Positions 10,790 through 17,800 of a DNA stretch of 64,000 bases are shown here, piece by piece; the stretch's first letter is position 1, and each line of letters starts with the position of its first letter. A model generated the notes under the pieces. That model saw only the letters and a list, made by a program, of their open reading frames with translations, ran no database searches and had not been told where the DNA came from. A program made the position numbers and the translations under genes. The stretch is from a virus (taxonomy: Duplodnaviria; Heunggongvirae; Uroviricota; Caudoviricetes): the IMG/VR virus record IMGVR_UViG_3300045988_005753; one strand, 5' to 3'.

Positions 10790-12205
10790 ATGAGCGAATT
10801 ATTTAAACATGCGCACCTTCATGCAGGTCGAACTGAAAATGGTGCTGTAAACCATACTTCATCAATGTCTGCTCTTGTAGACTTTTACAAAGCTGCTGGT
10901 TCAAGCCGTAGCAATGTAGAAATCTTACCAGACCTGTTCTACAAAGCTTTGCGTGAGGATGTTGATGTTGCAGTTCGTATTTTACTGCATATGCGAGATG
11001 TACGAGAAGGTATGGGTGAGCGTAAAGCCTTCAGAACTGTTTTGCTTCAAGCGATTGAAGATAAAGTTTTAGAGCCTACGCAGGTTCTTCGCATTATGGA
11101 TAAGATTGCAGAGCTTGGTCGTTTTGATGACTTCAAAATCTTTGTAGGTACTCGTTTCGAGACAGATGCCTTCAAGCATTTAGAAGCAGCATTACTAGAC
11201 CCTGCAACAGCAGGTTTGGCAGCTAAGTGGTTACCACGAGTCAAACCACGTCATAAGCAGTTTGTAAAACGTTTCTGCAAGTTTGCAAACTTGAGTGAGA
11301 AAGAGTACCGCACACTGCTGTCTGCACTATCTGATACAGTTGAACAAAAAATATCTGCTAATGAGTTTGGTAAGATTGACTACAGTAAGATTCCTTCACT
11401 TGCTGCTGCACGTTACCAAAAGCTCTTTAACCGTAAAGATGGAGAACGCTACAAAGCTTACATTGAGTCCTTATCAAAGGGCGAGACTAAGATTAATGCT
11501 GGTGCTGTTTATCCATATGATGTGATTAAATCTATCAAGTATGGTAATGCAGATGTTGCTAATGAGCAGTGGAAAGCACTACCAAACTGGATGGCAGAAG
11601 GTGAAAACATCCTGTGTATGACTGATGTTTCAAGCTCAATGTCTTGGGTGAATCTTGGTTCAATCACTGCCCTTGATATTGGTGTATCCCTTGCCTTGTA
11701 TGTAGCAGAACGCAATACAGGTTGTTTTAAGAATGAGTTAATGGTTTATTCAACAAACCCTCATTTCATCGAACTGAGTGGTGATTTACGAAACCGTCAT
11801 CGTCAGGTAATGCGTCATGTTGAATATGGTTCAACTAACTTACAAGCAGCTTTTGACCGCATTCTTGAAATAGGTAAGAGAAACAACTTGACTCAGGAAG
11901 ATATGCCAAGTAAGCTTATCATCTTCTCTGATATGGAGTTCAATCAGGTTGACGGTGCAAATGGTCATACAAACTTTGAAGCAATTCAGAGTAAGTACAA
12001 AAAAGCTGGATATGAGATGCCACAATTGGTATTCTGGTACTTAGCAAACCGTAATGGTACTTGCGAAGTGTCTGTTAAGGATAACGGTGTAGCAATGGTA
12101 TCTGGTTTCTCTCCAGCCACTTTAAAAGCTCTGCTTGGTGGTGAGAAGTTTGACCCAATCAGCGTAATGCTCAAAGCAGTAATGATTGACCGCTATATCT
12201 GGTAA
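10790..12205 (+). CDS. vWA-domain protein, candidate Ro60/TROVE-like RNA-binding protein
   Basis: 471 aa; helical N-terminal part then a DxSxS MIDAS-type motif (DVSSSMS) typical of vWA folds; sits directly upstream of the tRNA array that contains Y-RNA-like elements. Confidence 0.55.
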   Translation: MSELFKHAHLHAGRTENGAVNHTSSMSALVDFYKAAGSSRSNVEILPDLFYKALREDVDVAVRILLHMRDVREGMGERKAFRTVLLQAIEDKVLEPTQVLRIMDKIAELGRFDDFKIFVGTRFETDAFKHLEAALLDPATAGLAAKWLPRVKPRHKQFVKRFCKFANLSEKEYRTLLSALSDTVEQKISANEFGKIDYSKIPSLAAARYQKLFNRKDGERYKAYIESLSKGETKINAGAVYPYDVIKSIKYGNADVANEQWKALPNWMAEGENILCMTDVSSSMSWVNLGSITALDIGVSLALYVAERNTGCFKNELMVYSTNPHFIELSGDLRNRHRQVMRHVEYGSTNLQAAFDRILEIGKRNNLTQEDMPSKLIIFSDMEFNQVDGANGHTNFEAIQSKYKKAGYEMPQLVFWYLANRNGTCEVSVKDNGVAMVSGFSPATLKALLGGEKFDPISVMLKAVMIDRYIW

Positions 12206-12223: not shown

Positions 12224-12252
12224 TTGACAATGTGTTTAATACCCTTTAATAT
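12224..12252 (+). promoter_or_regulatory. sigma70-type promoter upstream of the tRNA array
   Basis: TTGACA, 17-bp spacer, TAATAT. Confidence 0.55.
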
Positions 12253-12370
12253 GTTCTACATAGAAACGAAATGAGAGCTTTTCTAAGATACTGAAAAATA
12301 TTTTAAAAAAGTTCTTGACAACCACTAAAAAATAATGTTAAAGTAGTTACATAGAGTTTGAAAAGTTTAT

Positions 12371-12447
12371 CTCTGTTTAGCTCAGCTTGGTAGAGCGTTC
12401 CGTTTGGGGCGGTAAGGCCGGAGGTTCAAGTCCTCCAACAGAGACCA
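12371..12447 (+). tRNA. tRNA-Pro (UGG)
   Basis: cloverleaf folded by eye: acceptor CTCTGTT/AACAGAG, T-arm GGAGG-TTCAAGT-CCTCC, encoded CCA. Confidence 0.75.
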
Positions 12448-12454
12448 AATTAAT

Positions 12455-12532
12455 GTTCCAGTAGACAAAATGGTAAAGTCACCACTCTTTCAAAGTGGAT
12501 ATTTGAGGGTTCAAATCCCTTCTGGAACGCCA
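12455..12532 (+). tRNA. tRNA-Glu (UUC)
   Basis: acceptor GTTCCAG/CTGGAAC, anticodon stem CCACT/AGTGG, loop CTTTCAA, CCA. Confidence 0.75.
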
Positions 12533-12537
12533 GTTTT

Positions 12538-12618
12538 GACAGAAGACCAATTACAGCAAACTTAATCTTATTCATCTGAAGGTAAATCGGACAAAGAAGA
12601 GATTTGGTCTGGTCATTA
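12538..12618 (+). ncRNA. stem-bounded structured element A (ACAGAAGACCAATTACAGCAA ... TTGGTCTGG)
   Basis: 5' AGACCAA pairs with 3' TTGGTCT; compensatory changes relative to elements B and C. Confidence 0.4.
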
Positions 12619-12623
12619 AGAAT

Positions 12624-12700
12624 TGCGGGTATAGAGAAAGGGCGTCTCACATGTCTCATTAGCATGGTATCGGCAGGTTCGACTCCTGCACCCGCCTCCA
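12624..12700 (+). tRNA. tRNA-Met-like (CAU), irregular acceptor with a 1:72 mismatch
   Basis: T-arm GCAGG-TTCGACT-CCTGC, anticodon stem CATGT/GCATG, loop CTCATTA, CCA; 5' boundary uncertain. Confidence 0.5.
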
Positions 12701-12705
12701 AATTT

Positions 12706-12776
12706 ACAGAAGACCGTTTACAGCAACATTTATTAAATTTTTAGCGGAAAAATTGAAAGATACGGTCTGGTAATAC
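12706..12776 (+). ncRNA. stem-bounded structured element B (ACAGAAGACCGTTTACAGCAA ... ACGGTCTGG)
   Basis: 5' AGACCGT pairs with 3' ACGGTCT; internal AATTTTT-AGCGG-AAAAATT hairpin. Confidence 0.4.
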
Positions 12777-12783
12777 TAAACAT

Positions 12784-12860
12784 GGTTAGGAAGCACATAA
12801 GGTATGTGCGGTCGCCTGTTAAGCGAATGGCACAGGGTTCGAATCCCTGACTAACCGCCA
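12784..12860 (+). tRNA. tRNA-Asn (GUU)
   Basis: acceptor GGTTAGG/ACTAACC, D-stem GCAC/GTGC, loop CTGTTAA, T-arm CAGGG-TTCGAAT-CCCTG, CCA. Confidence 0.75.
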
Positions 12861-12929
12861 AATTTAGGAGAGAAGCGATTGCTCACCGATTTGTAAGGTG
12901 CAAGTCCTTAGCCTGAATAGAAATTAAAT

Positions 12930-13017
12930 GTGTCGTTATCCCGTAGATGGTAGCGGTGGGGACTGTAAATCCCTTGTCATTGAGACTCGGTAGGTTCGAC
13001 TCCTACACGGCACACCA
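12930..13017 (+). tRNA. tRNA-Tyr (GUA), long variable arm
   Basis: 88 nt; acceptor GTGTCGT/ACGGCAC, loop CTGTAAA, T-arm GTAGG-TTCGACT-CCTAC, CCA. Confidence 0.7.
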
Positions 13018-13022
13018 ATAAA

Positions 13023-13100
13023 GGTTATGTAGTTTAATCTGGTTAAAATACTCCCCTGTCACGGGAGATGATGAGGGTTCAAATCCCTTCGTAACCGCCA
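13023..13100 (+). tRNA. tRNA-Asp (GUC)
   Basis: acceptor GGTTATG/CGTAACC, anticodon stem CTCCC/GGGAG, loop CTGTCAC, CCA. Confidence 0.75.
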
Positions 13101-13124
13101 ATTTTGAGAGGGCTATTTAGCCCC

Positions 13125-13160
13125 TCCCTTAAAGAGTTCTTACGAGTATTCTTTAAAGGA
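13125..13160 (+). other. conserved hairpin (stem CCTTAAAGA/TCTTTAAAGG, loop containing TTCTTACGAG)
   Basis: same hairpin family recurs at 13974-14005 and 16466-16495, each time in a spacer of the tRNA array. Confidence 0.45.
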
Positions 13161-13161
13161 G

Positions 13162-13240
13162 CAGAAGGCCAAATACAGCAAGAATGTATGAAATTTCAAG
13201 CCAATTTAATTTTGAAAATTTAAAACTTGGTCTGGCTCAA
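13162..13240 (+). ncRNA. stem-bounded structured element D (AGAAGGCCAAATACAGCAAG ... TTGGTCTGG)
   Basis: 5' GGCCAA pairs with 3' TTGGTC (one G-U); same ACAGCAA core as A, B and C. Confidence 0.35.
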
Positions 13241-13247
13241 CAAATTT

Positions 13248-13385
13248 ACAGAAGACCGTTTACAGCAAAACTTAAACAATCTATTTCTCCGGTAAAGAAA
13301 AGGCGAAGGTTCGATTCCTTCACTCGGCAGATGTCGAGTTGGTGTAATGGTAGCACTTAAGATGATAAACAACGGTCTGGTAATT
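13248..13385 (+). ncRNA. candidate Y-RNA / YrlA-like tRNA mimic: closing stem around a circularly permuted tRNA-like module
   Basis: order read directly: 5' stem AGACCGTT, T-arm GAAGG-TTCGATT-CCTTC, acceptor 3' strand ACTCGGC, 4-nt loop, acceptor 5' strand GTCGAGT, D-arm GTGT-AATGGTA-GCAC, 3' stem AACGGTCT. Confidence 0.5.
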
Positions 13386-13529
13386 ATCTTTGTAGATAAG
13401 TTATTAAGCTTACCTGTGAGTATGCGACCACAAAGGGTGAATGGGTAAATTCTAGATTTAAACCCAAAAAGGCACATCGCTACAGACCTTAAGCAAGTCT
13501 GGGTAGCTTATCTACAAAGATAATTTAAT

Positions 13530-13605
13530 GGAAGTGTAGCAGAATGGTGATGCGGCAGACTTTTAATCTGACAGGCGATGGGTTCGAATCCCTCCACTTC
13601 TACCA
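13530..13605 (+). tRNA. tRNA-Lys (UUU)
   Basis: acceptor GGAAGTG/CACTTCT, loop CTTTTAA, T-loop TTCGAAT, CCA. Confidence 0.7.
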
Positions 13606-13609
13606 ATAT

Positions 13610-13686
13610 GGTTCAGTCGCAGATAAGGTAATGCAAGGGTCTCATAAGCCCTATGAATGTGGGTTCGATTCCCATCTGAACCTCCA
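13610..13686 (+). tRNA. tRNA-Met or tRNA-Ile2 (CAU)
   Basis: acceptor GGTTCAG/CTGAACC, anticodon stem AGGGT/GCCCT, loop CTCATAA, CCA. Confidence 0.7.
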
Positions 13687-13687
13687 A

Positions 13688-13763
13688 GCTGGTATAGTTA
13701 AGAAGGTTATAACACTCCCCTGATAAGGGAACATCGGTGGTTCGATTCCACCTACCAGTACCA
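13688..13763 (+). tRNA. tRNA-Ile (GAU)
   Basis: acceptor GCTGGTA/TACCAGT, D-stem GTTA/TAAC, loop CTGATAA, T-arm GGTGG-TTCGATT-CCACC, CCA. Confidence 0.7.
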
Positions 13764-13778
13764 ATTTCAATAAAGTTG

Positions 13779-13807
13779 TTGACATTGAGATGTGACTACT
13801 TTATAGT
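13779..13807 (+). promoter_or_regulatory. internal sigma70-type promoter within the tRNA array
   Basis: TTGACA, 17-bp spacer, TATAGT. Confidence 0.5.
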
Positions 13808-13973
13808 AACCTTAGTTTTCGTTGCGTAGCGTCTATTTTGCAAATTTAAAATAAATGCAAACGACAATGTTTTTCTGGCAGTAGCTTGATAGGCTAAACA
13901 CCAGTGAGGTCTTCCAATCCCTCATCAAAGAATTTGGCGTACTCGCCCACGGTATGATTAATAAGGTGGGCAT

Positions 13974-14005
13974 CTTTAAGGACTTTCTAAGAGAGTCTTT
14001 AAAGA
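13974..14005 (+). other. conserved hairpin (stem CTTTAAGGA/TCTTTAAAG, loop CTTTCTAAGAGAG)
   Basis: member of the TTCT(T)A(C/A)GAGAG-loop hairpin family. Confidence 0.45.
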
Positions 14006-14009
14006 TAAT

Positions 14010-14086
14010 GCACCCTTAGTTCAATTGGATAGAGCAACGGTCTTCTAAATCGTTAGTTACAGGTTCGAATCCTGTAGGGTGTACCA
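14010..14086 (+). tRNA. tRNA-Arg (UCU)
   Basis: acceptor GCACCCT/AGGGTGT, anticodon stem ACGGT/ATCGT, loop CTTCTAA, T-arm ACAGG-TTCGAAT-CCTGT, CCA. Confidence 0.75.
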
Positions 14087-14228
14087 AATAGTTAGCAGAT
14101 TACTTAGACTGCCTTAGCGGGTCTTCCTGTAGGGAGGTGGTCTGTATCTCATGTTTTCCAGAACATGTAAATAATCTGAGAAGAAGCTTGACAGTGTTGA
14201 GATAACAGGGTAAGCTTCGAATTATAAT

Positions 14229-14311
14229 ATGGGACGATGTTAAGACTCTAAGGCATGAGCAACGGCCTCCAAAACCGTTTCAAAGGGGTTCAACTCCTCC
14301 GTCCCATGCCA
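14229..14311 (+). tRNA. tRNA-like gene, probably tRNA-Trp (CCA), with an enlarged irregular D-region
   Basis: perfect 7-bp acceptor ATGGGAC/GTCCCAT, T-loop TTCAACT, CCA end, anticodon loop CTCCAAA; 83 nt. Confidence 0.5.
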
Positions 14312-14324
14312 AAGTCTTATTAGG

Positions 14325-14414
14325 GGTAGGTAGCGGCTAATGGCAGCCAAACAGTCTTGAAAACTGTTGCCACTGTAGAGATACGGTGAGGGTTCGACTC
14401 CTTTACTTACCGCC
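14325..14414 (+). tRNA. tRNA-Ser (UGA), long variable arm; CCA apparently not encoded
   Basis: acceptor GGTAGGT/ACTTACC, anticodon stem ACAGT/ACTGT, loop CTTGAAA, T-loop TTCGACT. Confidence 0.65.
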
Positions 14415-14565
14415 TAATAAGATTTACTCCGTCCATGCTTGTTCGCATTGTCGGTTTATCCCTCGTGTATTGTCGTACACTGTCAAAGCACCTAGTAGGT
14501 GTCATGGAGAGAGATAATATCAAGCTCTCCAAAGGTTCTAGTCACCGGATTAAACAAGACTATGC

Positions 14566-14588
14566 AAAGACCTAAATAGGTCTTTTTA
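14566..14588 (+). terminator. rho-independent terminator-like hairpin inside the tRNA array
   Basis: AAGACC-TAAATA-GGTCTT followed by TTTTT. Confidence 0.45.
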
Positions 14589-14591
14589 GAG

Positions 14592-14650
14592 GGCTTCTAA
14601 GGTTATTACAGCTTGTTGTGGAACCTTGTTGCTTAGGTTCTTAGAAGTTC
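14592..14650 (+). other. long hairpin (CTTCTAAGG ... CTTAGAAG)
   Basis: 8-bp inverted repeat around a 40-nt loop; related to the CTAAGG hairpin family. Confidence 0.35.
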
Positions 14651-14666
14651 TCTAAAAAGATTTAAT

Positions 14667-14744
14667 GGGAGATTGACGGTAATTGGTAAACCTACCATCC
14701 TTAGAAGTTGGTGTTTGAGGGTTCGAATCCCTTGTCTCCTACCA
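14667..14744 (+). tRNA. tRNA with anticodon UAG (Leu-type) but a short variable arm
   Basis: acceptor GGGAGAT/GTCTCCT, D-loop AATTGGTAA (Leu-like), anticodon stem CCATC/GTTGG, loop CTTAGAA, A73, CCA; 78 nt. Confidence 0.6.
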
Positions 14745-14751
14745 AATTAAT

Positions 14752-14827
14752 GCAGGTGTAGCAAAATGGTTATGCGGCTGACTCTTAATCAGTAAGACGA
14801 TGGGTTCAATTCCCTCCACCTGTACCA
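14752..14827 (+). tRNA. tRNA-Lys (CUU)
   Basis: acceptor GCAGGTG/CACCTGT, anticodon stem GCTGA/TCAGT, loop CTCTTAA, CCA; close paralog of the Lys(UUU) gene. Confidence 0.7.
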
Positions 14828-14833
14828 AACAAT

Positions 14834-14909
14834 GGGGTCATAGTTTATATGGTTAAAATTCGAGTTTTGCAAACTTGGGAACTGAGTTCAATTCTCAGTG
14901 ACTCCACCA
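14834..14909 (+). tRNA. tRNA-Ala (UGC)
   Basis: acceptor GGGGTCA/TGACTCC, anticodon stem CGAGT/ACTTG, loop TTTGCAA, T-arm CTGAG-TTCAATT-CTCAG, CCA. Confidence 0.75.
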
Positions 14910-14915
14910 ATTAGT

Positions 14916-14990
14916 GCATCCATAGTTTAAACGGGAAAATTACAGTCTTCCAAACTGAGGTTGAGGGTTCGATTCCCTCTGGATGCTCCA
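14916..14990 (+). tRNA. tRNA-Gly (UCC)
   Basis: acceptor GCATCCA/TGGATGC, loop CTTCCAA, T-arm GAGGG-TTCGATT-CCCTC, CCA. Confidence 0.7.
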
Positions 14991-14997
14991 AATTAAT

Positions 14998-15073
14998 GCT
15001 CCTATCGTATAATTGGTTATTACGGTTGCCTTGTAAGCAACTTATCAGGGTTCGAGTCCTTGTGGGAGCACCA
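14998..15073 (+). tRNA. tRNA-Thr (UGU)
   Basis: acceptor GCTCCTA/TGGGAGC, anticodon stem GTTGC/GCAAC, loop CTTGTAA, CCA. Confidence 0.75.
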
Positions 15074-15074
15074 A

Positions 15075-15165
15075 TTCAGAGGTCAAGTGAAAGACCGCTT
15101 TGAGTCAACTGAAGACCGTAACAAATTCCACGGAGTTGAGTTAGCGGCACAACTCCAGACCTCTT
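15075..15165 (+). ncRNA. structured spacer element E (long-range stem CAGAGGTC/GACCTCT, internal hairpin GGAGTTG...CAACTCC, GAAGACCGTAACAA motif)
   Basis: inverted repeats read directly; shares the GAAGACCGT core with elements A-D. Confidence 0.35.
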
Positions 15166-15169
15166 TCAT

Positions 15170-15244
15170 ACTCGCTTAGTTTATATGGTAAAACATCACC
15201 CTTACAAGATGAAGAAAAAGGTTCAAGTCCTTTAGTGAGTACCA
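15170..15244 (+). tRNA. tRNA-Val (UAC)
   Basis: acceptor ACTCGCT/AGTGAGT, D-stem GTTT/AAAC, anticodon stem TCACC/GATGA, loop CTTACAA, CCA. Confidence 0.7.
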
Positions 15245-15245
15245 T

Positions 15246-15323
15246 GTTCCAGTATCCCAATTGGCAGAGGATGCAAGCTCAAACCTTGTATTAGTGACGG
15301 TTCGAATCCGTCTTGGAACACCA
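15246..15323 (+). tRNA. tRNA with anticodon CAA (Leu-type) but a short variable arm
   Basis: acceptor GTTCCAG/TTGGAAC, D-loop AATTGGCAGAG (Leu-like), anticodon stem GCAAG/CTTGT, loop CTCAAAC, A73, CCA. Confidence 0.6.
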
Positions 15324-15328
15324 ATTTT

Positions 15329-15404
15329 GCAGGATTAGTTCAAATGGAAAGAGCAACAGTCTACGAAGCTGTTAATAGGGGTTCGAATCCCTTATCCTGC
15401 GCCA
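15329..15404 (+). tRNA. tRNA-Arg (ACG)
   Basis: acceptor GCAGGAT/ATCCTGC, D-stem GTTC/GAGC, anticodon stem ACAGT/GCTGT, loop CTACGAA, CCA. Confidence 0.75.
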
Positions 15405-15421
15405 GATAAAAAGGTGACACT

Positions 15422-15664
15422 ATGCAAACATTAACAGTAGTTGAACATGAAAACTGTGAGAGTATTGAGTTTGTCAGGGTCATTGGTGTTGAACACCACA
15501 TTTTCTTAAAAGTGGGATACTTATGTGACCCCGCTAGAGTAGAAAGATTTATACGTGATTGTTTTGGTGGTAGACATCTGAAGAGTGTTATTTTTGAGAC
15601 AGTTTTACCAGAAGGTTTAGAAACGAATAATAACATTTACCTCCTTACGAGGATTAGACAATGA
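15422..15664 (+). CDS. hypothetical protein embedded in the tRNA array
   Basis: ATG with AGGTGA RBS; ATGA coupling to the next ORF. Confidence 0.45.
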   Translation: MQTLTVVEHENCESIEFVRVIGVEHHIFLKVGYLCDPARVERFIRDCFGGRHLKSVIFETVLPEGLETNNNIYLLTRIRQ

Positions 15665-16218
15665 GATACTTAAAGTATGCTTCATGGATTTTCTTAGCTT
15701 TGTTAGAGCCATTTGCAGCAATCTTAGCAGTTATCTTAGCACCTTTCGTAGTTCCATTCTACAGTGAGAAGAAAGGACATCTACCTTTCGGGTTCAGATG
15801 GATGGAAACTTATGACAACCCAATTGATGGTGATGAAGGTCACGTTAAAAGATGGGCTAATATTAGATGGATTGGTAAACTAGGTGTCTACATGCAAAGA
15901 GTCGGATGGCTCTGGAGAAACAAAGCTTATAACTTCTCTTACCATGTATTAGGGAGAGATGTAAAAGATGTTACTAAGTGGAAAGGTAATATCAACGTAA
16001 GTTCTGACCCTGAAGATAATCAGACAGGTTATCTCCTAATGTGGAACAGTAATGCTTGGGGATTATTCGCTTTTATCCCATCAATTAAAATCTTTGGTAA
16101 ACAATTTTACTGGAGAATTTATATTGGATGGAAACTAAAAAGTGTTGTCCCAGAAGAAAGAGCATTCTCAAGGGAAAGAGTTATGTTGGCATTCTTTATT
16201 CATCCACTGAGAAAGTAA
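15661..16218 (+). CDS. membrane protein embedded in the tRNA array
   Basis: N-terminal hydrophobic segment WIFLALLEPFAAILAVILAPFVVPF; 185 aa. Confidence 0.5.
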   Translation: MRYLKYASWIFLALLEPFAAILAVILAPFVVPFYSEKKGHLPFGFRWMETYDNPIDGDEGHVKRWANIRWIGKLGVYMQRVGWLWRNKAYNFSYHVLGRDVKDVTKWKGNINVSSDPEDNQTGYLLMWNSNAWGLFAFIPSIKIFGKQFYWRIYIGWKLKSVVPEERAFSRERVMLAFFIHPLRK

Positions 16219-16226
16219 AGATTTAA

Positions 16227-16302
16227 AGGGGATTAGTTTACAAGGTTAAAACCTCGGTCTTTGAAATCGAAGAAGTTGGTTCAATTCCAACATCCCCCGC
16301 CA
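16227..16302 (+). tRNA. tRNA-Gln (UUG)
   Basis: acceptor AGGGGAT/ATCCCCC, anticodon stem TCGGT/ATCGA, loop CTTTGAA, T-arm GTTGG-TTCAATT-CCAAC, CCA. Confidence 0.7.
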
Positions 16303-16304
16303 AT

Positions 16305-16383
16305 GCTCCATTACTCCAATTGGCAGAGAGGCCAGACTTAAAATCTGTGTTATGTATCGGTTCGAATCCGATATGGAGTACCA
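16305..16383 (+). tRNA. tRNA with anticodon UAA (Leu-type) but a short variable arm
   Basis: acceptor GCTCCAT/ATGGAGT, D-loop AATTGGCAGAG (Leu-like), loop CTTAAAA, T-arm ATCGG-TTCGAAT-CCGAT, A73, CCA. Confidence 0.6.
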
Positions 16384-16388
16384 AATTT

Positions 16389-16464
16389 AGCGGTATAGCA
16401 TAACTGGCAATGCAGCAGTCTCTGAAGCTGTCTTATTAAGGTTCAAATCCTTATGCCGCTGCCA
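16389..16464 (+). tRNA. tRNA-Gln (CUG)
   Basis: acceptor AGCGGTA/TGCCGCT, anticodon stem GCAGT/GCTGT, loop CTCTGAA, CCA. Confidence 0.65.
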
Positions 16465-16465
16465 C

Positions 16466-16495
16466 TTCTAAGGATTCTTACGAGAGTCCTTAAAT
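16466..16495 (+). other. conserved hairpin (stem TAAGGA/TCCTTA, loop TTCTTACGAGAG)
   Basis: member of the TTCTTACGAG-loop hairpin family. Confidence 0.45.
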
Positions 16496-16571
16496 GTGGC
16501 CTTATCATAAATGGTAATGACCCATGCTGTGAACATGGTCTATACGGGTTCAAATCCCGTAGGTCACCCCA
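16496..16571 (+). tRNA. tRNA-His (GUG)
   Basis: acceptor GTGGCCT/AGGTCAC, D-stem TCAT/ATGA, anticodon stem CCATG/CATGG, loop CTGTGAA, CCA. Confidence 0.75.
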
Positions 16572-16576
16572 ATTTA

Positions 16577-16653
16577 TAGTCCAAGTAGCTTATATGGTTA
16601 AAGCGCGTGTCTGAAAAACATGAGAAGAGGGTTCAAATCCCACTGGACTACCA
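16577..16653 (+). tRNA. tRNA-Phe (GAA)
   Basis: acceptor TAGTCCA/TGGACTA, anticodon stem CGTGT/ACATG, loop CTGAAAA, T-loop TTCAAAT, CCA; 5' end uncertain by 1 nt. Confidence 0.65.
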
Positions 16654-16669
16654 ATTTCAAAGGTGCTTA

Positions 16670-17404
16670 ATGAAAGAGATGACAGAACAAGGTAAGGAGA
16701 TTTTTAATCTCTTAAAAACTGGTAAAGGGTTTTCTAACCCCCTTATTACTGGTGCAGCAGTTCTCGGTGGAACCGTAGCTGCCTCCACATCACTTGTAAG
16801 CTCTATTAGTTCTGTATCAGACCCTACAGTAAAAGATAAGCTTGTTGCTGCTGGACTTACAACAGTTCTGCTTAACAGCTTTACCACGAGTCTGACAAGC
16901 ACTACATCAACTACCAAAACACTGACAGATTACGGTCAAAAGTCCATTGATGAGTTTTCATCACGTATGCAGGTAGCAAAAGGTTATTCTAATGTTATGG
17001 GTGCAGCAGGTGAACAAGTTGGCTGTACACCATTTAGTGGTATTATGGGTGTTGCTACAGAGTATGGTCAAAAAGCTATTGATACGATTAACAGTGCACT
17101 AGACGGTGTTAATGATGTATTAAGTGATTTACAAGACGCTATTGACAAAGGTCTTGATACTATTTCTGATTTAGCTAACCAAGCTGTTAGTAAGATTAAT
17201 GAAGGTATCTCGAAGATTACAGCTTATGCAGATGAAGTTGTGCAGATGATTGAAGAAGAAGCTGCCCTTATTGCAGAGTACCTTAAAACGAATATCAATG
17301 GGTTCTTAGCAGGTATCTTACCAGACTGGTTTGATGATGCTTGTAAAACTGGTGTAATTGACACTATTGCAACACCAGAAATGAAGAACGCATTACAGAA
17401 ATAA
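16670..17404 (+). CDS. hypothetical Ser/Thr-rich protein
   Basis: track ORF starts inside tRNA-Phe; first ATG downstream of the tRNA (16670) has an AAAGGTG RBS. Confidence 0.5.
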   Translation: MKEMTEQGKEIFNLLKTGKGFSNPLITGAAVLGGTVAASTSLVSSISSVSDPTVKDKLVAAGLTTVLLNSFTTSLTSTTSTTKTLTDYGQKSIDEFSSRMQVAKGYSNVMGAAGEQVGCTPFSGIMGVATEYGQKAIDTINSALDGVNDVLSDLQDAIDKGLDTISDLANQAVSKINEGISKITAYADEVVQMIEEEAALIAEYLKTNINGFLAGILPDWFDDACKTGVIDTIATPEMKNALQK

Positions 17405-17405
17405 T

Positions 17406-17498
17406 GGAAGATTAACCCTAAAAGGTAAGGGAGCAGTTTGCTAAACTGCCAGTAGCTGAGAAATCGGTGTACCAGTTCAAGTCTGGTATCTTCCTCCA
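17406..17498 (+). tRNA. tRNA-Ser (GCU), long variable arm
   Basis: 93 nt; acceptor GGAAGAT/ATCTTCC, anticodon stem GCAGT/ACTGC, loop TTGCTAA, T-arm ACCAG-TTCAAGT-CTGGT, CCA. Confidence 0.7.
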
Positions 17499-17502
17499 AT
17501 TT

Positions 17503-17578
17503 GAATCCGTGACAGAAATGGCTATGTGCCTGTCTGCAAAACAGGTTTATAAGGGTTCGAGTCCCTTCGGATTCTCCA
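17503..17578 (+). tRNA. tRNA-Cys (GCA)
   Basis: acceptor GAATCCG/CGGATTC, anticodon stem CCTGT/ACAGG, loop CTGCAAA, T-arm AAGGG-TTCGAGT-CCCTT, CCA. Confidence 0.75.
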
Positions 17579-17730: not shown

Positions 17731-17755
17731 GTTTCTCCTTGACGGTCTCTGTACC
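17731..17755 (+). terminator. rho-independent terminator
   Basis: GACGGT-CTCTGT-ACCGTC followed by TTTTTT. Confidence 0.6.
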
Positions 17756-17800
17756 GTCTTTTTTAAGGGGAAACATGATTAACTATTTGGAGAAAACATA

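What the first reader, a model, noticed from the sequence alone, without database searches (positions are those of the whole stretch)
12371..17578. Large tRNA array apparently covering all 20 amino acids
By manual folding I find about 27 tRNA genes on the plus strand, most ending in an encoded CCA. The anticodons read as Pro, Glu, Met (two CAU genes), Asn, Tyr, Asp, Lys (UUU and CUU), Ile, Arg (UCU and ACG), Trp, Ser (UGA and GCU), three Leu-type, Ala, Gly, Thr, Val, Gln (UUG and CUG), His, Phe and Cys. A near-complete set suggests independence from the host tRNA pool and possibly evasion of tRNA-cleaving defences; tRNA-Lys(UUU) is a classic anticodon-nuclease target and is duplicated here.
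Basis: partly seen in the sequence, partly recalled or inferred. Interest (0 to 1): 0.6.

Follow-up and report, generated by a model that had tools for sequence, protein, structure and literature searches.

The report
Phage tRNA array hiding Y-like RNAs
The tRNA gene cluster is real but is the already-annotated array of Felix O1-like phages; what is new is that its spacers hold four small structured RNAs that look like partners of the Ro60-like protein encoded just upstream, an RNA family found beside that protein's gene in many unrelated phages.

Summary
Observation confirmed. The 27th (Trp, 14229-14311) is missed by ARAGORN and Rfam, but it is a conserved, covarying, non-canonical tRNA-Trp-like RNA.

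The window is a Felixounavirus, 97.6% identical to sequenced relatives. RefSeq annotates the same 26 tRNAs, so the array itself is already known.

Codon use fits codon compensation: AGA is used 15 times more often than in E. coli, and ACA, UCA, CUA, UUA, CCA and AAG are also enriched. Each has a cognate phage tRNA. Defence evasion is plausible but only inferred. Lys(UUU) is not duplicated.

New: the gene upstream (10790-12205; DUF2828) has a Ro60 fold. The spacers hold four unannotated modules, Y1-Y4 (12537-13383). Each has a covarying stem followed by single-stranded UUACAGCAA. Y4 carries a permuted tRNA-like domain, as in YrlA Y RNAs.

A model built from such modules was run on 75 independent DUF2828 loci. 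It gave 47 hits, all on the gene's strand and 43 within about 500 nt of the gene. The modules also match Rfam's Dictyostelium Class I RNA model at full length, below its threshold. Binding and function are untested.

The parts
10790..12205 (+). Ro60-like RNA-binding protein gene (471 aa; Pfam DUF2828 + DUF7788 + weak VWA), directly upstream of the array
   Evidence: Pfam. PHROG 850 'RNA-binding protein'. AlphaFold2 model with pLDDT 85 and pTM 0.87. The ten best Foldseek PDB matches are all Ro60/Rsr/phage phiLo Ro60 at full length, E 1e-7 to 4e-5.
12224..12344 (+). Two sigma-70-like promoter matches (TTGACA-N17-TAATAT and TTGACA-N18-TAAAGT) ahead of the first tRNA
   Evidence: The number of promoter-like sites in the region is not above the shuffle expectation, so this is weak evidence.
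12371..12447 (+). tRNA-Pro(UGG)
12455..12532 (+). tRNA-Glu(UUC)
12537..12615 (+). Y1: stem-loop module UGAC-AGA-AGACCAA-UUACAGCAA...UUGGUCU-G-GUCA
   Evidence: Own model R1 32.3 bits. Rfam RF01414 19.7 bits, full length.
12624..12700 (+). Non-canonical tRNA(CAU): U1.C72 mismatch, 3-nt connector before the D stem, U37 (loop CUCAUUA). It lies exactly between Y1 and Y2.
   Evidence: ARAGORN only. No match to the Rfam tRNA model; only a 15.9-bit tRNA-Sec match. Cloverleaf by minimum free energy. The P778 homologue has an A.A mismatch at 1-72.
12704..12773 (+). Y2: module UUAC-AGA-AGACCGU-UUACAGCAA...ACGGUCU-G-GUAA
   Evidence: R1 34.3 bits. RF01414 17.1 bits.
12784..12860 (+). tRNA-Asn(GUU)
12930..13017 (+). 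tRNA-Tyr(GUA), long variable arm
   Evidence: Rfam scores it only as tRNA-Sec, 29.6 bits.
13023..13100 (+). tRNA-Asp(GUC)
13159..13238 (+). Y3: module GAGC-AGA-AGGCCAA-AUACAGCAA...UUGGUCU-G-GCUC
   Evidence: R1 25.2 bits.
13246..13383 (+). Y4: the same closing stems and UUACAGCAA motif around a permuted tRNA-like domain. V hairpin; T arm 13305-13321; closed acceptor-like stem 13322-13339; D arm 13342-13356. This is the YrlA-like architecture.
   Evidence: The minimum-free-energy fold gives this structure. The acceptor-like helix is 100% paired with 3 covarying pairs while T and D are invariant. Partial Rfam tRNA match at 13272-13322.
13382..13525 (+). Long hairpin with about 24 bp of closing stem. 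It encloses small hairpins, including a mini-module CAGACCUUAAGCAAGUCUG.
   Evidence: Inverted repeat I2. Fold -49.2 kcal/mol, z = -5.95.
13530..13605 (+). tRNA-Lys(UUU)
   Evidence: Compared with E. coli lysT.
13610..13686 (+). tRNA-Met(CAU), canonical cloverleaf; G28-30:C40-42, U73
13688..13763 (+). tRNA-Ile(GAU)
13779..13807 (+). Best promoter-like site in the region (TTGACA-N17-TATAGT, 11 of 12 matches)
14010..14086 (+). tRNA-Arg(UCU)
14229..14311 (+). tRNA-Trp(CCA)-like RNA. Non-canonical: 8-bp acceptor, 10-nt insert before a 3-bp D hairpin, C31.A39, 4-bp T stem.
   Evidence: Sequence. Not called by ARAGORN or Rfam. Covariation. Conserved in Yersinia phage P778.
14325..14414 (+). tRNA-Ser(UGA); the only gene without a complete encoded CCA
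14667..14744 (+). tRNA-Leu(UAG)
14752..14827 (+). tRNA-Lys(CUU), an 82%-identical paralogue of Lys(UUU)
14834..14909 (+). tRNA-Ala(UGC)
14916..14990 (+). tRNA-Gly(UCC)
14998..15073 (+). tRNA-Thr(UGU)
15170..15244 (+). tRNA-Val(UAC)
15246..15323 (+). tRNA-Leu(CAA)
15329..15404 (+). tRNA-Arg(ACG)
15422..16218 (+). Two conserved phage ORFs inside the array: 80 aa (PHROG 14202) and 185 aa (DUF7338)
16227..16302 (+). tRNA-Gln(UUG)
16305..16383 (+). tRNA-Leu(UAA)
16389..16464 (+). tRNA-Gln(CUG)
16496..16571 (+). tRNA-His(GUG)
16578..16653 (+). tRNA-Phe(GAA)
16670..17404 (+). Conserved phage ORF inside the array (244 aa, DUF7217)
17406..17498 (+). tRNA-Ser(GCU)
17503..17578 (+). tRNA-Cys(GCA), the last gene of the array
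17741..17766 (+). Terminator-like hairpin followed by a T run, downstream of the array

Best explanation
This is the tRNA/small-RNA region of a Felix O1-like (Felixounavirus) phage. It lies between a Ro60-like RNA-binding protein gene and the terminase gene.

Shown: 26 canonical-to-near-canonical tRNA genes plus one conserved non-canonical tRNA-Trp-like gene lie head to tail on one strand. Most are separated by 1-7 nt. Relatives annotate the same set.

Inferred: the genes are transcribed from a few sigma-70-type promoters as polycistronic precursors and cut out by host RNase P and 3' processing enzymes.

Shown for codon use, inferred for effect: the set has one U34 or A34 tRNA per four-codon box. 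It supplies decoders for the A/U-ending codons that this 39% G+C genome uses far more than E. coli does, with AGA the extreme case. It could also keep translation running if host tRNAs are depleted or cleaved.

Shown: interleaved with the first tRNAs are four unannotated RNA modules, Y1-Y4. Each has a 4-bp lower stem, an AGA/G internal loop and a 7-bp upper stem, followed by single-stranded UUACAGCAA. Y4 additionally holds a permuted tRNA-like domain (V, T arm, closed acceptor stem, D arm), as in bacterial YrlA Y RNAs. Modules of this type sit next to DUF2828 Ro60-like genes, on the same strand, in many unrelated phages.

Inferred: the modules are released by the flanking tRNA processing and bound by the Ro60-like ring protein. 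The result would be a phage Ro60/Y-RNA-type particle acting on tRNA or RNA quality control or on counter-defence.
For: tRNAs:
- ARAGORN finds 26 genes; Rfam passes 24 at its gathering score; 25 of 26 encode CCA.
- The region is 97.6% identical to Felixounavirus genomes, and 232 records cover at least 80% of it. RefSeq NC_041979 annotates the same 26 tRNAs in the same order.
- Codon use: AGA, ACA, UCA, CUA, UUA, CCA and AAG are enriched 2-15 fold over E. coli K-12, and each has an exact cognate phage tRNA.
- The Trp-like RNA is 99.3% paired, with 7 pairs changed on both sides.

Ro60-like protein:
- The model has pLDDT 85. The ten best PDB matches are all Ro60, Rsr or phage Ro60, at full length.

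Modules:
- There are four copies in the window, in the same order in all loci of related ~87-kb (Felix O1-like) phages examined.
- Closing stems are 99.7% paired, with 5 of 11 pairs covarying among 30 distinct copies.
- The Y4 acceptor-like helix is 100% paired with 3 covarying pairs, while T and D are invariant. The minimum-free-energy fold gives the permuted cloverleaf.
- The same stem plus CAGCAA architecture occurs beside DUF2828 genes in Yersinia, Aeromonas, Vibrio, Campylobacter, Listeria and Mycobacterium phages. Across 20 such modules, 7 of 7 pairs covary.
- Covariance model R1 hits only these modules in the 64-kb window.
- On 75 independent IMG/VR loci that encode DUF2828 homologues, R1 gives 47 hits at E <= 1. 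All are on the gene's strand and 43 lie within about 500 nt of the gene. Three of six further GenBank phages also hit.
- Rfam YrlA matches the tRNA-like middle module of the mycobacteriophages LeBron and Kingsolomon (E 1.8e-5 and 6.5e-5).

Literature:
- The Bas63 homologue gp130 is Ro60-like and counters the Ppl defence system. The authors guessed that some 'tRNAs' might be Y RNAs (10.1101/2024.10.10.617714).
Against: - There is no expression, processing or binding data for this phage. RNA ends are inferred.
- Promoter-like sites are not more frequent than in shuffled sequence.
- The protein matches neither Pfam TROVE nor any PDB sequence. Its likeness to Ro60 is at fold level only, with TM 0.4-0.65.
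- Y4 does not match Rfam YrlA even at E <= 10 and lacks the 5' GNCGAAN0-1G motif that defines YrlA.
- The 3' strands used in alignment A5 were chosen by best pairing, which inflates the percentage paired.
- About half of the independent DUF2828 loci gave no hit with the crude model.
- Bas63 tRNAs were mostly dispensable on laboratory strains, so the benefit of the array is conditional.
Confidence: 0.75

Rival explanations
1. The array exists mainly as a counter-defence. On this reading the phage tRNAs replace host tRNAs cleaved by anticodon nucleases (PrrC, PARIS AriB, retron PtuAB and similar), and codon matching is secondary.
For: Phage tRNAs rescue infection from PARIS, retron-Eco7 and PrrC in T5-like phages (PMC11464382, PMC11555353, PMC12409363). 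Here Lys(UUU) has U41 instead of A41, and Thr(UGU) and Asn(GUU) have G39 instead of U39. These are the positions whose mutation protects T5 tRNA-Lys from AriB. The set is close to a complete minimal decoder.
Against: The Lys(UUU) anticodon loop is identical to the host's, so loop-recognising nucleases such as PrrC would not obviously be evaded. The strong match between the tRNA set and phage-enriched codons is explained by codon compensation alone. Nothing has been tested in this phage group. The two roles are not mutually exclusive.
Confidence: 0.35
2. The spacer modules are not trans-acting RNAs with a protein partner. They would instead be DNA-level repeats (promoter or regulator sites, recombination or homing sites) or plain processing or terminator hairpins of the tRNA precursor.
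For: They lie between tRNAs, where processing signals are expected. There are no expression data. The motif is short.
Against: The stems change sequence while keeping pairing, both between copies and between phages of Proteobacteria, Firmicutes, Actinobacteria and Campylobacterota. That pattern indicates selection on the RNA. All 47 independent hits lie on the gene's strand and next to the DUF2828 gene, whether or not tRNAs are nearby. No U-tract follows the stems. Y4 and the mycobacteriophage homologues carry a YrlA-like domain.
Confidence: 0.1
3. The modules are cis-regulatory leader or trailer elements through which the Ro60-like protein autoregulates its own mRNA, rather than separate Y-RNA-like molecules.
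For: In many phages the modules lie directly upstream of the gene, sometimes within 50 nt of the start.
Against: In Felixounavirus and the mycobacteriophages they lie downstream, and here they are separated from the gene by promoters and tRNAs. They occur in tandem arrays of 3-8 copies, which is unusual for a leader. Y4 has a tRNA-like effector domain.
Confidence: 0.15
4. The Trp-like element (14229-14311) and the first CAU gene (12624-12700) are decaying tRNA pseudogenes with no function.
For: Neither matches the Rfam tRNA model, and the Trp-like element is also missed by ARAGORN. The defects are a C31.A39 mismatch, an aberrant D region, U37 and a 1-72 mismatch. In wV8-like relatives the Trp-like element is replaced by a different tRNA-Trp that ARAGORN does call, next to an HNH endonuclease gene.
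Against: Seven base pairs of the Trp-like RNA changed on both sides while staying paired. It is the only part of its 238-nt spacer still alignable with Yersinia phage P778. The odd features of the CAU gene (loop CUCAUUA, 1-72 mismatch, extra connector base) are themselves conserved in P778.
Confidence: 0.25

Closest known systems
tRNA gene clusters of Felix O1-like phages (Felixounavirus, e.g. NC_041979 typing phage 1, wV8, Felix O1, Bas63) and of T5-like phages
   Same: The same 26 tRNAs in the same order and at the same position, between the 'RNA-binding protein' gene and the terminase gene, at 95-98% identity. The proposed roles, codon compensation and rescue from tRNA-targeting defences, are also the same.
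   Different: Nothing about the tRNAs themselves. The records do not annotate the Trp-like RNA of this lineage or the four spacer modules.
Bacterial and phage YrlA Y RNAs bound by Ro60/Rsr (Chen et al. 2014, PMC4201824; Rfam RF02553)
   Same: Y4 lies within 1.1 kb of a Ro60-fold gene on the same strand. It has a terminal stem and a permuted tRNA-like domain in the order V - T arm - closed acceptor-like stem - D arm. T and D are invariant and the acceptor-like stem covaries.
   Different: There is no GNCGAAN0-1G motif near the 5' end; UUACAGCAA takes its place. Y4 has no Rfam RF02553 match. The protein is a DUF2828 family member, not a Pfam TROVE protein. Three of the four modules lack the tRNA-like domain.
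Dictyostelid Class I RNAs (Rfam RF01414; Kjellin et al. 2021, PMC7919456)
   Same: A short terminal stem whose sequence varies with compensation, immediately followed by an unpaired conserved motif. The Rfam consensus is GaUcuC-CUUACAGCAA...GagAuC-UG, and the phage form is AAG-stem-UUACAGCAA...stem-CUG(G/U). The Rfam model aligns at full length to Y1 and Y2 (19.7 and 17.1 bits) and to six Aeromonas phage modules (up to 29.6 bits, E 0.0015).
   Different: All scores are below the gathering score of 41.5. The Felixounavirus copies have an extra lower stem and an internal loop and are longer. The RNAs are viral and prokaryotic, not Pol III or DUSE driven. Class I RNAs are reported as unique to Dictyostelia, and their known binder is the RRM protein Rnp1A, not a Ro60-like protein.
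Thermus phage phiLo Ro60 with Yrl1/Yrl2 (PMC12135203)
   Same: A phage-encoded Ro60-fold protein with small stem-bulge-stem RNAs encoded beside its gene. Its structure is among the best fold matches (9KOP and 9L5Y).
   Different: The phiLo RNAs carry a CGAA motif and lie upstream of the gene. The protein is a recognisable TROVE protein, and no tRNA array is involved.

Membership tests
Phage tRNA gene array (Felixounavirus type) | Many cloverleaf tRNA genes clustered on one strand | tested here: met
   26 genes by ARAGORN and 24 above the Rfam gathering score, within 5.2 kb.
Phage tRNA gene array (Felixounavirus type) | Sequence identity and synteny with annotated arrays of the genus | tested here: met
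   97.6% identity to Felixounavirus AN17P8. NC_041979 has the same tRNA order and the same flanking genes.
Canonical tRNA-Trp | Recognised by tRNA detectors (ARAGORN; Rfam RF00005 at or above 29 bits) | tested here: not met
   Not called at 14229-14311, even at -ps80. Only a 23-bit tRNA-Sec match.
Canonical tRNA-Trp | Anticodon CCA in a 7-nt loop, G73, A1-U72 and a 3' CCA (E. coli TrpRS identity set, from established knowledge) | tested here: met
   Read directly from the sequence and conserved across relatives.
Canonical tRNA-Trp | Standard D arm (2-nt connector, 3-4 bp stem) and a Watson-Crick 31-39 pair | tested here: not met
   10-nt insert before a 3-bp hairpin; C31.A39 mismatch.
Canonical tRNA-Trp | Aminoacylation with Trp and use in translation | not testable with these tools
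   Needs tRNA-seq or charging assays.
YrlA Y RNA (Rfam RF02553) | Encoded within about 4 kb of a Ro60 orthologue on the same strand | tested here: met
   Y4 begins 1.04 kb after the stop codon of the Ro60-fold gene, on the same strand.
YrlA Y RNA (Rfam RF02553) | tRNA-like domain with conserved T and D stem-loops separated by a variable acceptor-like stem-loop | tested here: met
   T and D invariant; acceptor-like helix 100% paired with 3 covarying pairs.
YrlA Y RNA (Rfam RF02553) | GNCGAAN0-1G motif near the 5' end | tested here: not met
   The only GNCGAA in the region (13302) overlaps the T stem. The 5' motif is UUACAGCAA.
YrlA Y RNA (Rfam RF02553) | Score at or above the Rfam gathering threshold (69 bits) | tested here: not met
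   No RF02553 match at E <= 10 in 12520-13420. The mycobacteriophage homologues score 38-40 bits.
Ro60/TROVE protein | HEAT-repeat ring plus vWA domain fold | tested here: met
   Full-length Foldseek matches to 2NVO, 9KOP, 1YVP, 2I91 and human Ro60.
Ro60/TROVE protein | Pfam TROVE domain or sequence similarity to solved Ro60 structures | tested here: not met
   Only DUF2828, DUF7788 and weak VWA. No PDB sequence match, even with a profile.
Dictyostelid Class I RNA (Rfam RF01414) | Short stem joining the 5' and 3' ends, conserved in structure but not in sequence | tested here: met
   (7 of 7 pairs covary).
Dictyostelid Class I RNA (Rfam RF01414) | Conserved unpaired 11-nt motif next to the 5' strand of the stem | tested here: met
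   UUACAGCAA matches the Rfam consensus CUUACAGCAA. CAGCAA is invariant in 20 of 20 modules.
Dictyostelid Class I RNA (Rfam RF01414) | Conserved AAG start and CUGU end | tested here: inconclusive
   AAG...CUGG in the window; AAG or UAG...CUGU in the Aeromonas and Vibrio phages. The RNA ends are not mapped.
Dictyostelid Class I RNA (Rfam RF01414) | Score at or above the Rfam gathering threshold (41.5 bits) | tested here: not met
   19.7 and 17.1 bits in the window; at most 29.6 bits in phage LAh_9.
Dictyostelid Class I RNA (Rfam RF01414) | DUSE promoter about 60 nt upstream; dictyostelid genome | tested here: not met
   This is a phage genome. The promoter-like sites present are of the bacterial sigma-70 type.

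The most novel reading that the evidence does not exclude
The stem-plus-UUACAGCAA RNAs are the cognate ligands of the DUF2828 branch of Ro60-like proteins. Together they would form a widespread phage Ro60/Y-RNA-type particle that is often linked to tRNA arrays, RtcB or RNA ligase genes and that acts in tRNA/RNA surveillance or counter-defence. They would also be evolutionarily related to the dictyostelid Class I RNAs. That would make Class I RNAs, whose function is unknown and which are thought unique to social amoebae, Y-RNA analogues with a predictable Ro60-like protein partner.
Probability: 0.35. Interest if true: 0.8.

Novelty: new member of a known kind. Interest (0 to 1): 0.5.

Why it matters
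The tRNA array as reported is ordinary. It is annotated in hundreds of Felix O1-like genomes and fits codon compensation.

The added value lies in the spacers. They give candidate RNA partners to a very common phage protein family: more than 2,500 DUF2828 homologues were found, and 710 phage records. The Bas63 member of that family has been shown to counter the Ppl defence system, but no RNA ligand has been identified for it.

The result yields a concrete, testable binding motif (stem plus UUACAGCAA). It shows a YrlA-like tRNA mimic embedded in a tRNA operon. It explains why some 'tRNA' calls in these phages look odd.

The unexpected resemblance to Dictyostelium Class I RNAs turns a 20-year-old question, what Class I RNAs do, into a direct experiment: does a DUF2828/Ro60-like protein bind them?

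Tried and rejected
- Relaxed ARAGORN thresholds (-ps, -ps90, -ps80) did not recover a tRNA-Trp. They added only antisense artefacts.
- Sequence-only searches of the Ro60-like protein against the PDB, with a single sequence and with a 33-sequence profile, found nothing relevant. Only the fold comparison worked.
- I considered an alternative pairing in which GGUCUGG is the 5' strand and CAGAAGACC the 3' strand, which would enclose the CAU tRNA as in a leader-trailer helix. I rejected it because the compensatory changes (AA:UU against GU:AC, and the lower stems UGAC:GUCA, UUAC:GUAA, GAGC:GCUC) fit only the hairpin arrangement.
- Rfam YrlA does not match Y4, so I do not file Y4 as a YrlA member.
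- MAFFT on full-length modules misaligned the 3' strands. I used condensed 50-nt versions instead.
- The promoter scan is no better than chance overall, so I do not rely on it.
- The supplementary tables of Chen et al. 2014 that list the 22 phages with YrlA are not held. I therefore cannot exclude that some DUF2828 phages were among them.
- The AlphaFold-database fold search, meant to look for a Dictyostelium DUF2828 protein, was unavailable.
- I considered whether one CAU tRNA is a lysidine-type tRNA-Ile2. AUA is rare in the phage (1.4 per 1000), so there is no evident need. This is left open.

Full report
**1. The observation**

ARAGORN finds 26 tRNA genes in the window, all on the + strand between 12371 and 17578 and none elsewhere.

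Rfam's tRNA model passes its gathering score for 24 of them. Tyr scores only as tRNA-Sec (29.6 bits). The first CAU gene (12624-12700) does not match the tRNA model; its only Rfam match is a 15.9-bit tRNA-Sec hit.

25 of 26 genes end in an encoded CCA; Ser(UGA) ends GCC-U. Within the sub-clusters the genes are 1-7 nt apart. Larger gaps of 240-820 nt hold ORFs or non-coding sequence.

Lys(UUU) is single copy; the second Lys gene has anticodon CUU and is an 82%-identical paralogue.

**2. What the window is**

The region is 97.6% identical to Felixounavirus AN17P8. It is 95-97% identical to many Escherichia, Salmonella and Shigella Felix O1-like phages. 404 phage records match, and 232 cover at least 80% of the region.

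RefSeq NC_041979 annotates the same 26 tRNAs in the same order. In that record they lie between an 'RNA-binding protein' gene and the large terminase gene, with the same three ORFs inside the array. As a tRNA array, this is already known and annotated.

**3. The Trp-like element**

At 14229-14311 there is an 83-nt RNA-like element with these features:
- A1-U72, G73 and a 3' CCA;
- the anticodon loop CUCCAAA;
- a C31.A39 mismatch;
- a conserved 10-nt insert (GAUGUUAAGA) before a 3-bp D-like hairpin;
- an 8-bp acceptor stem and a 4-bp T stem.

It is the only part of its 238-nt spacer that still aligns with the distant Yersinia phage P778. Among 7 distinct homologues the four helices are 99.3% paired. 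Seven pairs changed on both sides (4 of the 5 anticodon-stem pairs, 1 D pair, 2 acceptor pairs), against none in the slid controls.

So it is a selectively maintained structured RNA, not a chance fold. Whether it is charged with Trp cannot be told from sequence.

In wV8-like relatives this element is replaced by a different tRNA-Trp that ARAGORN does call, followed by an HNH endonuclease gene.

**4. Function of the tRNA set**

I compared 40 long phage ORFs (13,786 codons) with 34 E. coli K-12 genes (13,773 codons).

| Codon | Phage (per 1000) | E. coli K-12 (per 1000) |
|---|---|---|
| AGA | 18.1 | 1.2 |
| ACA | 24.9 | 5.3 |
| UCA | 20.0 | 5.2 |
| CUA | 9.6 | 4.1 |
| UUA | 20.1 | 9.7 |
| CCA | 16.8 | 8.7 |
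| AAG | 31.9 | 12.1 |

Each of these codons has an exact cognate phage tRNA. Cognate codons are enriched overall (Mann-Whitney p = 0.03). This is the classical codon-compensation pattern for a 39% G+C phage in a 51% G+C host.

For the defence-evasion reading, the Lys(UUU) anticodon loop equals that of E. coli lysT, but the 3' stem reads U39-C40-U41 instead of U-C-A. Thr(UGU) and Asn(GUU) have G39. PMC12409363 shows that the PARIS nuclease AriB cuts E. coli Lys(UUU), Thr(UGU) and Asn(GUU) at U36-A-A-U-C|A41, and that U39A or A41C protect. Evasion is therefore plausible for PARIS-type nucleases, but this is inference only.

In the related phage Bas63 the tRNAs were mostly non-essential on four laboratory strains (10.1101/2024.10.10.617714).

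**5. The gene upstream is Ro60-like**

The 471-aa product of 10790-12205 matches only Pfam DUF2828, DUF7788 and, weakly, VWA. It has no sequence match in the PDB.

An AlphaFold2 model built from 33 homologues has pLDDT 85 and pTM 0.87. Its ten best Foldseek matches in the PDB are all Ro60 proteins, at full length with E 1e-7 to 4e-5: D. radiodurans Rsr, Thermus phage phiLo Ro60, and Xenopus and human Ro60.

This independently confirms the structural similarity reported for Bas63 gp130. That preprint found that gp130 counters the Ppl defence system and speculated that some neighbouring 'tRNAs' might be Y RNAs.

**6. Four unannotated RNA modules in the spacers**

A repeat search showed four copies of CAGAAGACCNNUUACAGCAA. 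Each pairs with a downstream NNGGUCUGG to give the following architecture:
- a 4-bp lower stem;
- an AGA/G internal loop;
- a 7-bp upper stem;
- an unpaired UUACAGCAA.

The four modules are Y1 12537-12615, Y2 12704-12773, Y3 13159-13238 and Y4 13246-13383. The minimum-free-energy folds reproduce these stems.

The same four modules, in the same order, occur in every locus examined from related ~87-kb (Felix O1-like) phages, including Suspvirus and Mooglevirus members. Among 30 distinct stem sets, 99.7% of cells pair and 5 of 11 pairs changed on both sides. With slid partners only 21-47% pair.

Y4 encloses a V hairpin, a T arm (GAAGG-UUCGAUU-CCUUC), a closed 7-bp acceptor-like stem and a D arm (GUGU-AAUGGUA-GCAC). 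T and D are invariant. The acceptor-like stem has three different sequences (ACUCGGC/GUCGAGU, ACACGUU/GGCGUGU, ACCCUUC/GAAGGGU) and is 100% paired.

This is the architecture that Chen et al. 2014 (PMC4201824) described for YrlA Y RNAs. But Y4 lacks their GNCGAAN0-1G motif and does not match Rfam RF02553. It works like a YrlA, but I do not file it as a member.

The odd CAU 'tRNA' (U1.C72, extra connector base, U37) sits exactly between Y1 and Y2. Processing of this tRNA and its neighbours would free the modules; this step is inferred.

**7. The modules belong to a wide family tied to DUF2828 genes**

The same design is a 7-bp stem, 1-5 nt (usually 1-3), an invariant CAGCAA, a variable loop, then the 3' strand followed by G(U). 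It lies on the same strand next to the DUF2828 gene in the following phages:
- Yersinia P778, with stems changed to GGACUGU/ACAGUCC;
- Aeromonas LAh_9, with 8 tandem copies;
- Vibrio phi-pp2;
- Campylobacter CPX;
- Listeria LMTA-34;
- mycobacteriophages LeBron and Kingsolomon.

In 20 such modules all 7 stem pairs changed on both sides. The caveat is that I chose the 3' strands by best pairing.

In the mycobacteriophages the middle module carries a T / acceptor-like / D domain that Rfam YrlA matches at E 1.8e-5 and 6.5e-5.

A covariance model of the condensed modules (R1) hits only Y1-Y4 in the 64-kb window, apart from one 12.7-bit match at E 3.7.

Out-of-sample results:
- Vibrio BUCT194 gives three tandem hits (E 8e-6). 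Bacillus MrDarsey and a Staphylococcus phage give one each. Three other phages give none.
- On 75 IMG/VR loci fetched only by DUF2828 homology (39-47% identity), R1 gives 47 hits at E <= 1.
- All 47 hits are on the gene's strand, and 43 lie within about 500 nt of the gene's ends.
- 28 of the 75 loci hit at E <= 0.01.

This association cannot be chance.

DUF2828 genes also tend to sit beside tRNA arrays, RtcB or RNA ligase genes. That recalls the Salmonella rsr-yrlBA-rtcBA operon (PMC7790460).

**8. Resemblance to Dictyostelium Class I RNAs**

In the all-family Rfam scans, the only family that aligns at full length to the modules is RF01414, Class I RNA from Dictyostelium:
- six LAh_9 modules at 18-30 bits (E 0.0015-1);
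- Y1 at 19.7 bits and Y2 at 17.1 bits.

All are below the gathering score of 41.5.

The Rfam consensus is GaUcuC-CUUACAGCAA...GagAuC-UG. The published description is a 6-bp terminal stem conserved only in structure, an unpaired 11-nt motif next to the 5' strand, an AAG start and a CUGU end (PMC7919456). Both match the phage modules point for point. That paper reports Class I RNAs as absent outside Dictyostelia and of unknown mechanism.

I could not test whether dictyostelids encode a DUF2828 protein. Common ancestry or a shared protein partner is therefore a hypothesis. I put its probability at about 0.35.

**9. Literature check**

Searches for DUF2828, Ro-like proteins, Y RNA with Felixounavirus, and Class I RNA with Ro60 found no description of these modules. 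Known phage Y-like RNAs are those of TROVE-annotated phages (PMC4201824) and of Thermus phage phiLo (PMC12135203). Both carry a CGAA-type motif.

**10. Verdict**

The finding as written is correct and already known.

The real interest lies in what the array hides. There is a conserved non-canonical Trp-like RNA. There is also a cluster of four Y-RNA-like modules, one of them YrlA-like, which belong to a previously undescribed RNA family genomically coupled to DUF2828 Ro60-like proteins across phages. Expression and binding remain to be shown.

Noticed in passing
L003:3147-3636 (phage wV8); also rows for phages warpig, tootiki and JN01: In wV8-like relatives the Trp-like element is replaced by a different 71-nt tRNA-Trp(CCA) that ARAGORN calls, followed directly by an HNH endonuclease gene. 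The homology with the window breaks exactly at the 5' end of the Trp-like element. This looks like a homing-endonuclease cassette that carried in its own tRNA.
   Followed up: partly
window 13382-13525: A 144-nt hairpin with about 24 bp of closing stem (z = -5.95) lies between Y4 and tRNA-Lys(UUU). Inside it is a miniature module, CAGACC-UUAAGCAA-GUCUG. It may be a fifth structured RNA or an RNase III site.
   Followed up: partly
window 14581-14660: An inverted repeat with 21-nt arms, 90% complementary and 38 nt apart, lies just upstream of tRNA-Leu(UAG). It is unexplained.
   Followed up: no
L032 (IMGVR_UViG_2706796742, an 87.5-kb Felix O1-like phage contig), Y4 region: The T arm of Y4 is fused directly to the 3' part of tRNA-Lys(UUU). 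This is a deletion that looks like recombination between the two T loops, so Y4 can be lost.
   Followed up: no
L082:929-1480 (Listeria phage LMTA-34): There is a sub-threshold full-length ROOL RNA match (82.7 bits, against a gathering score of 99.1). It lies between tRNAs and upstream of three CAGCAA modules, the DUF2828 gene and an RtcB ligase gene.
   Followed up: no
L006 (Aeromonas LAh_9) and L083 (mycobacteriophage Kingsolomon): An SPFH/band-7 family gene lies near the DUF2828 gene in two unrelated phages. Xanthomonas XbC2 has an RNA ligase there, and Listeria LMTA-34 has RtcB. This may be a recurring gene neighbourhood.
   Followed up: no
L002:2595-2980 (Yersinia phage P778): The 690-nt gap between tRNA-Ala and tRNA-Lys holds two orphan T-arm-like sequences (GGGUUCGAUUCCC) and a weak tmRNA-like match (18 bits). 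These are degenerate tRNAs or further tRNA-like RNAs.
   Followed up: no
window 15422-16218 and 16670-17404: Three conserved protein genes are embedded in the tRNA array: an 80-aa product (PHROG 14202), a DUF7338 protein and a DUF7217 protein. All are of unknown function.
   Followed up: partly
hit H79 (GU169904, Staphylococcus phage SA1): A record labelled as a Staphylococcus phage carries a 97.7%-identical copy of this Felixounavirus gene. It is probably a chimeric or contaminated assembly.
   Followed up: no
window 14197-14228: A promoter-like site (TTGAGA-N17-AATTAT, overlapping a TATAAT) ends 1-5 nt before the Trp-like RNA. Transcription could therefore start at or inside its 5' end.
   Followed up: no
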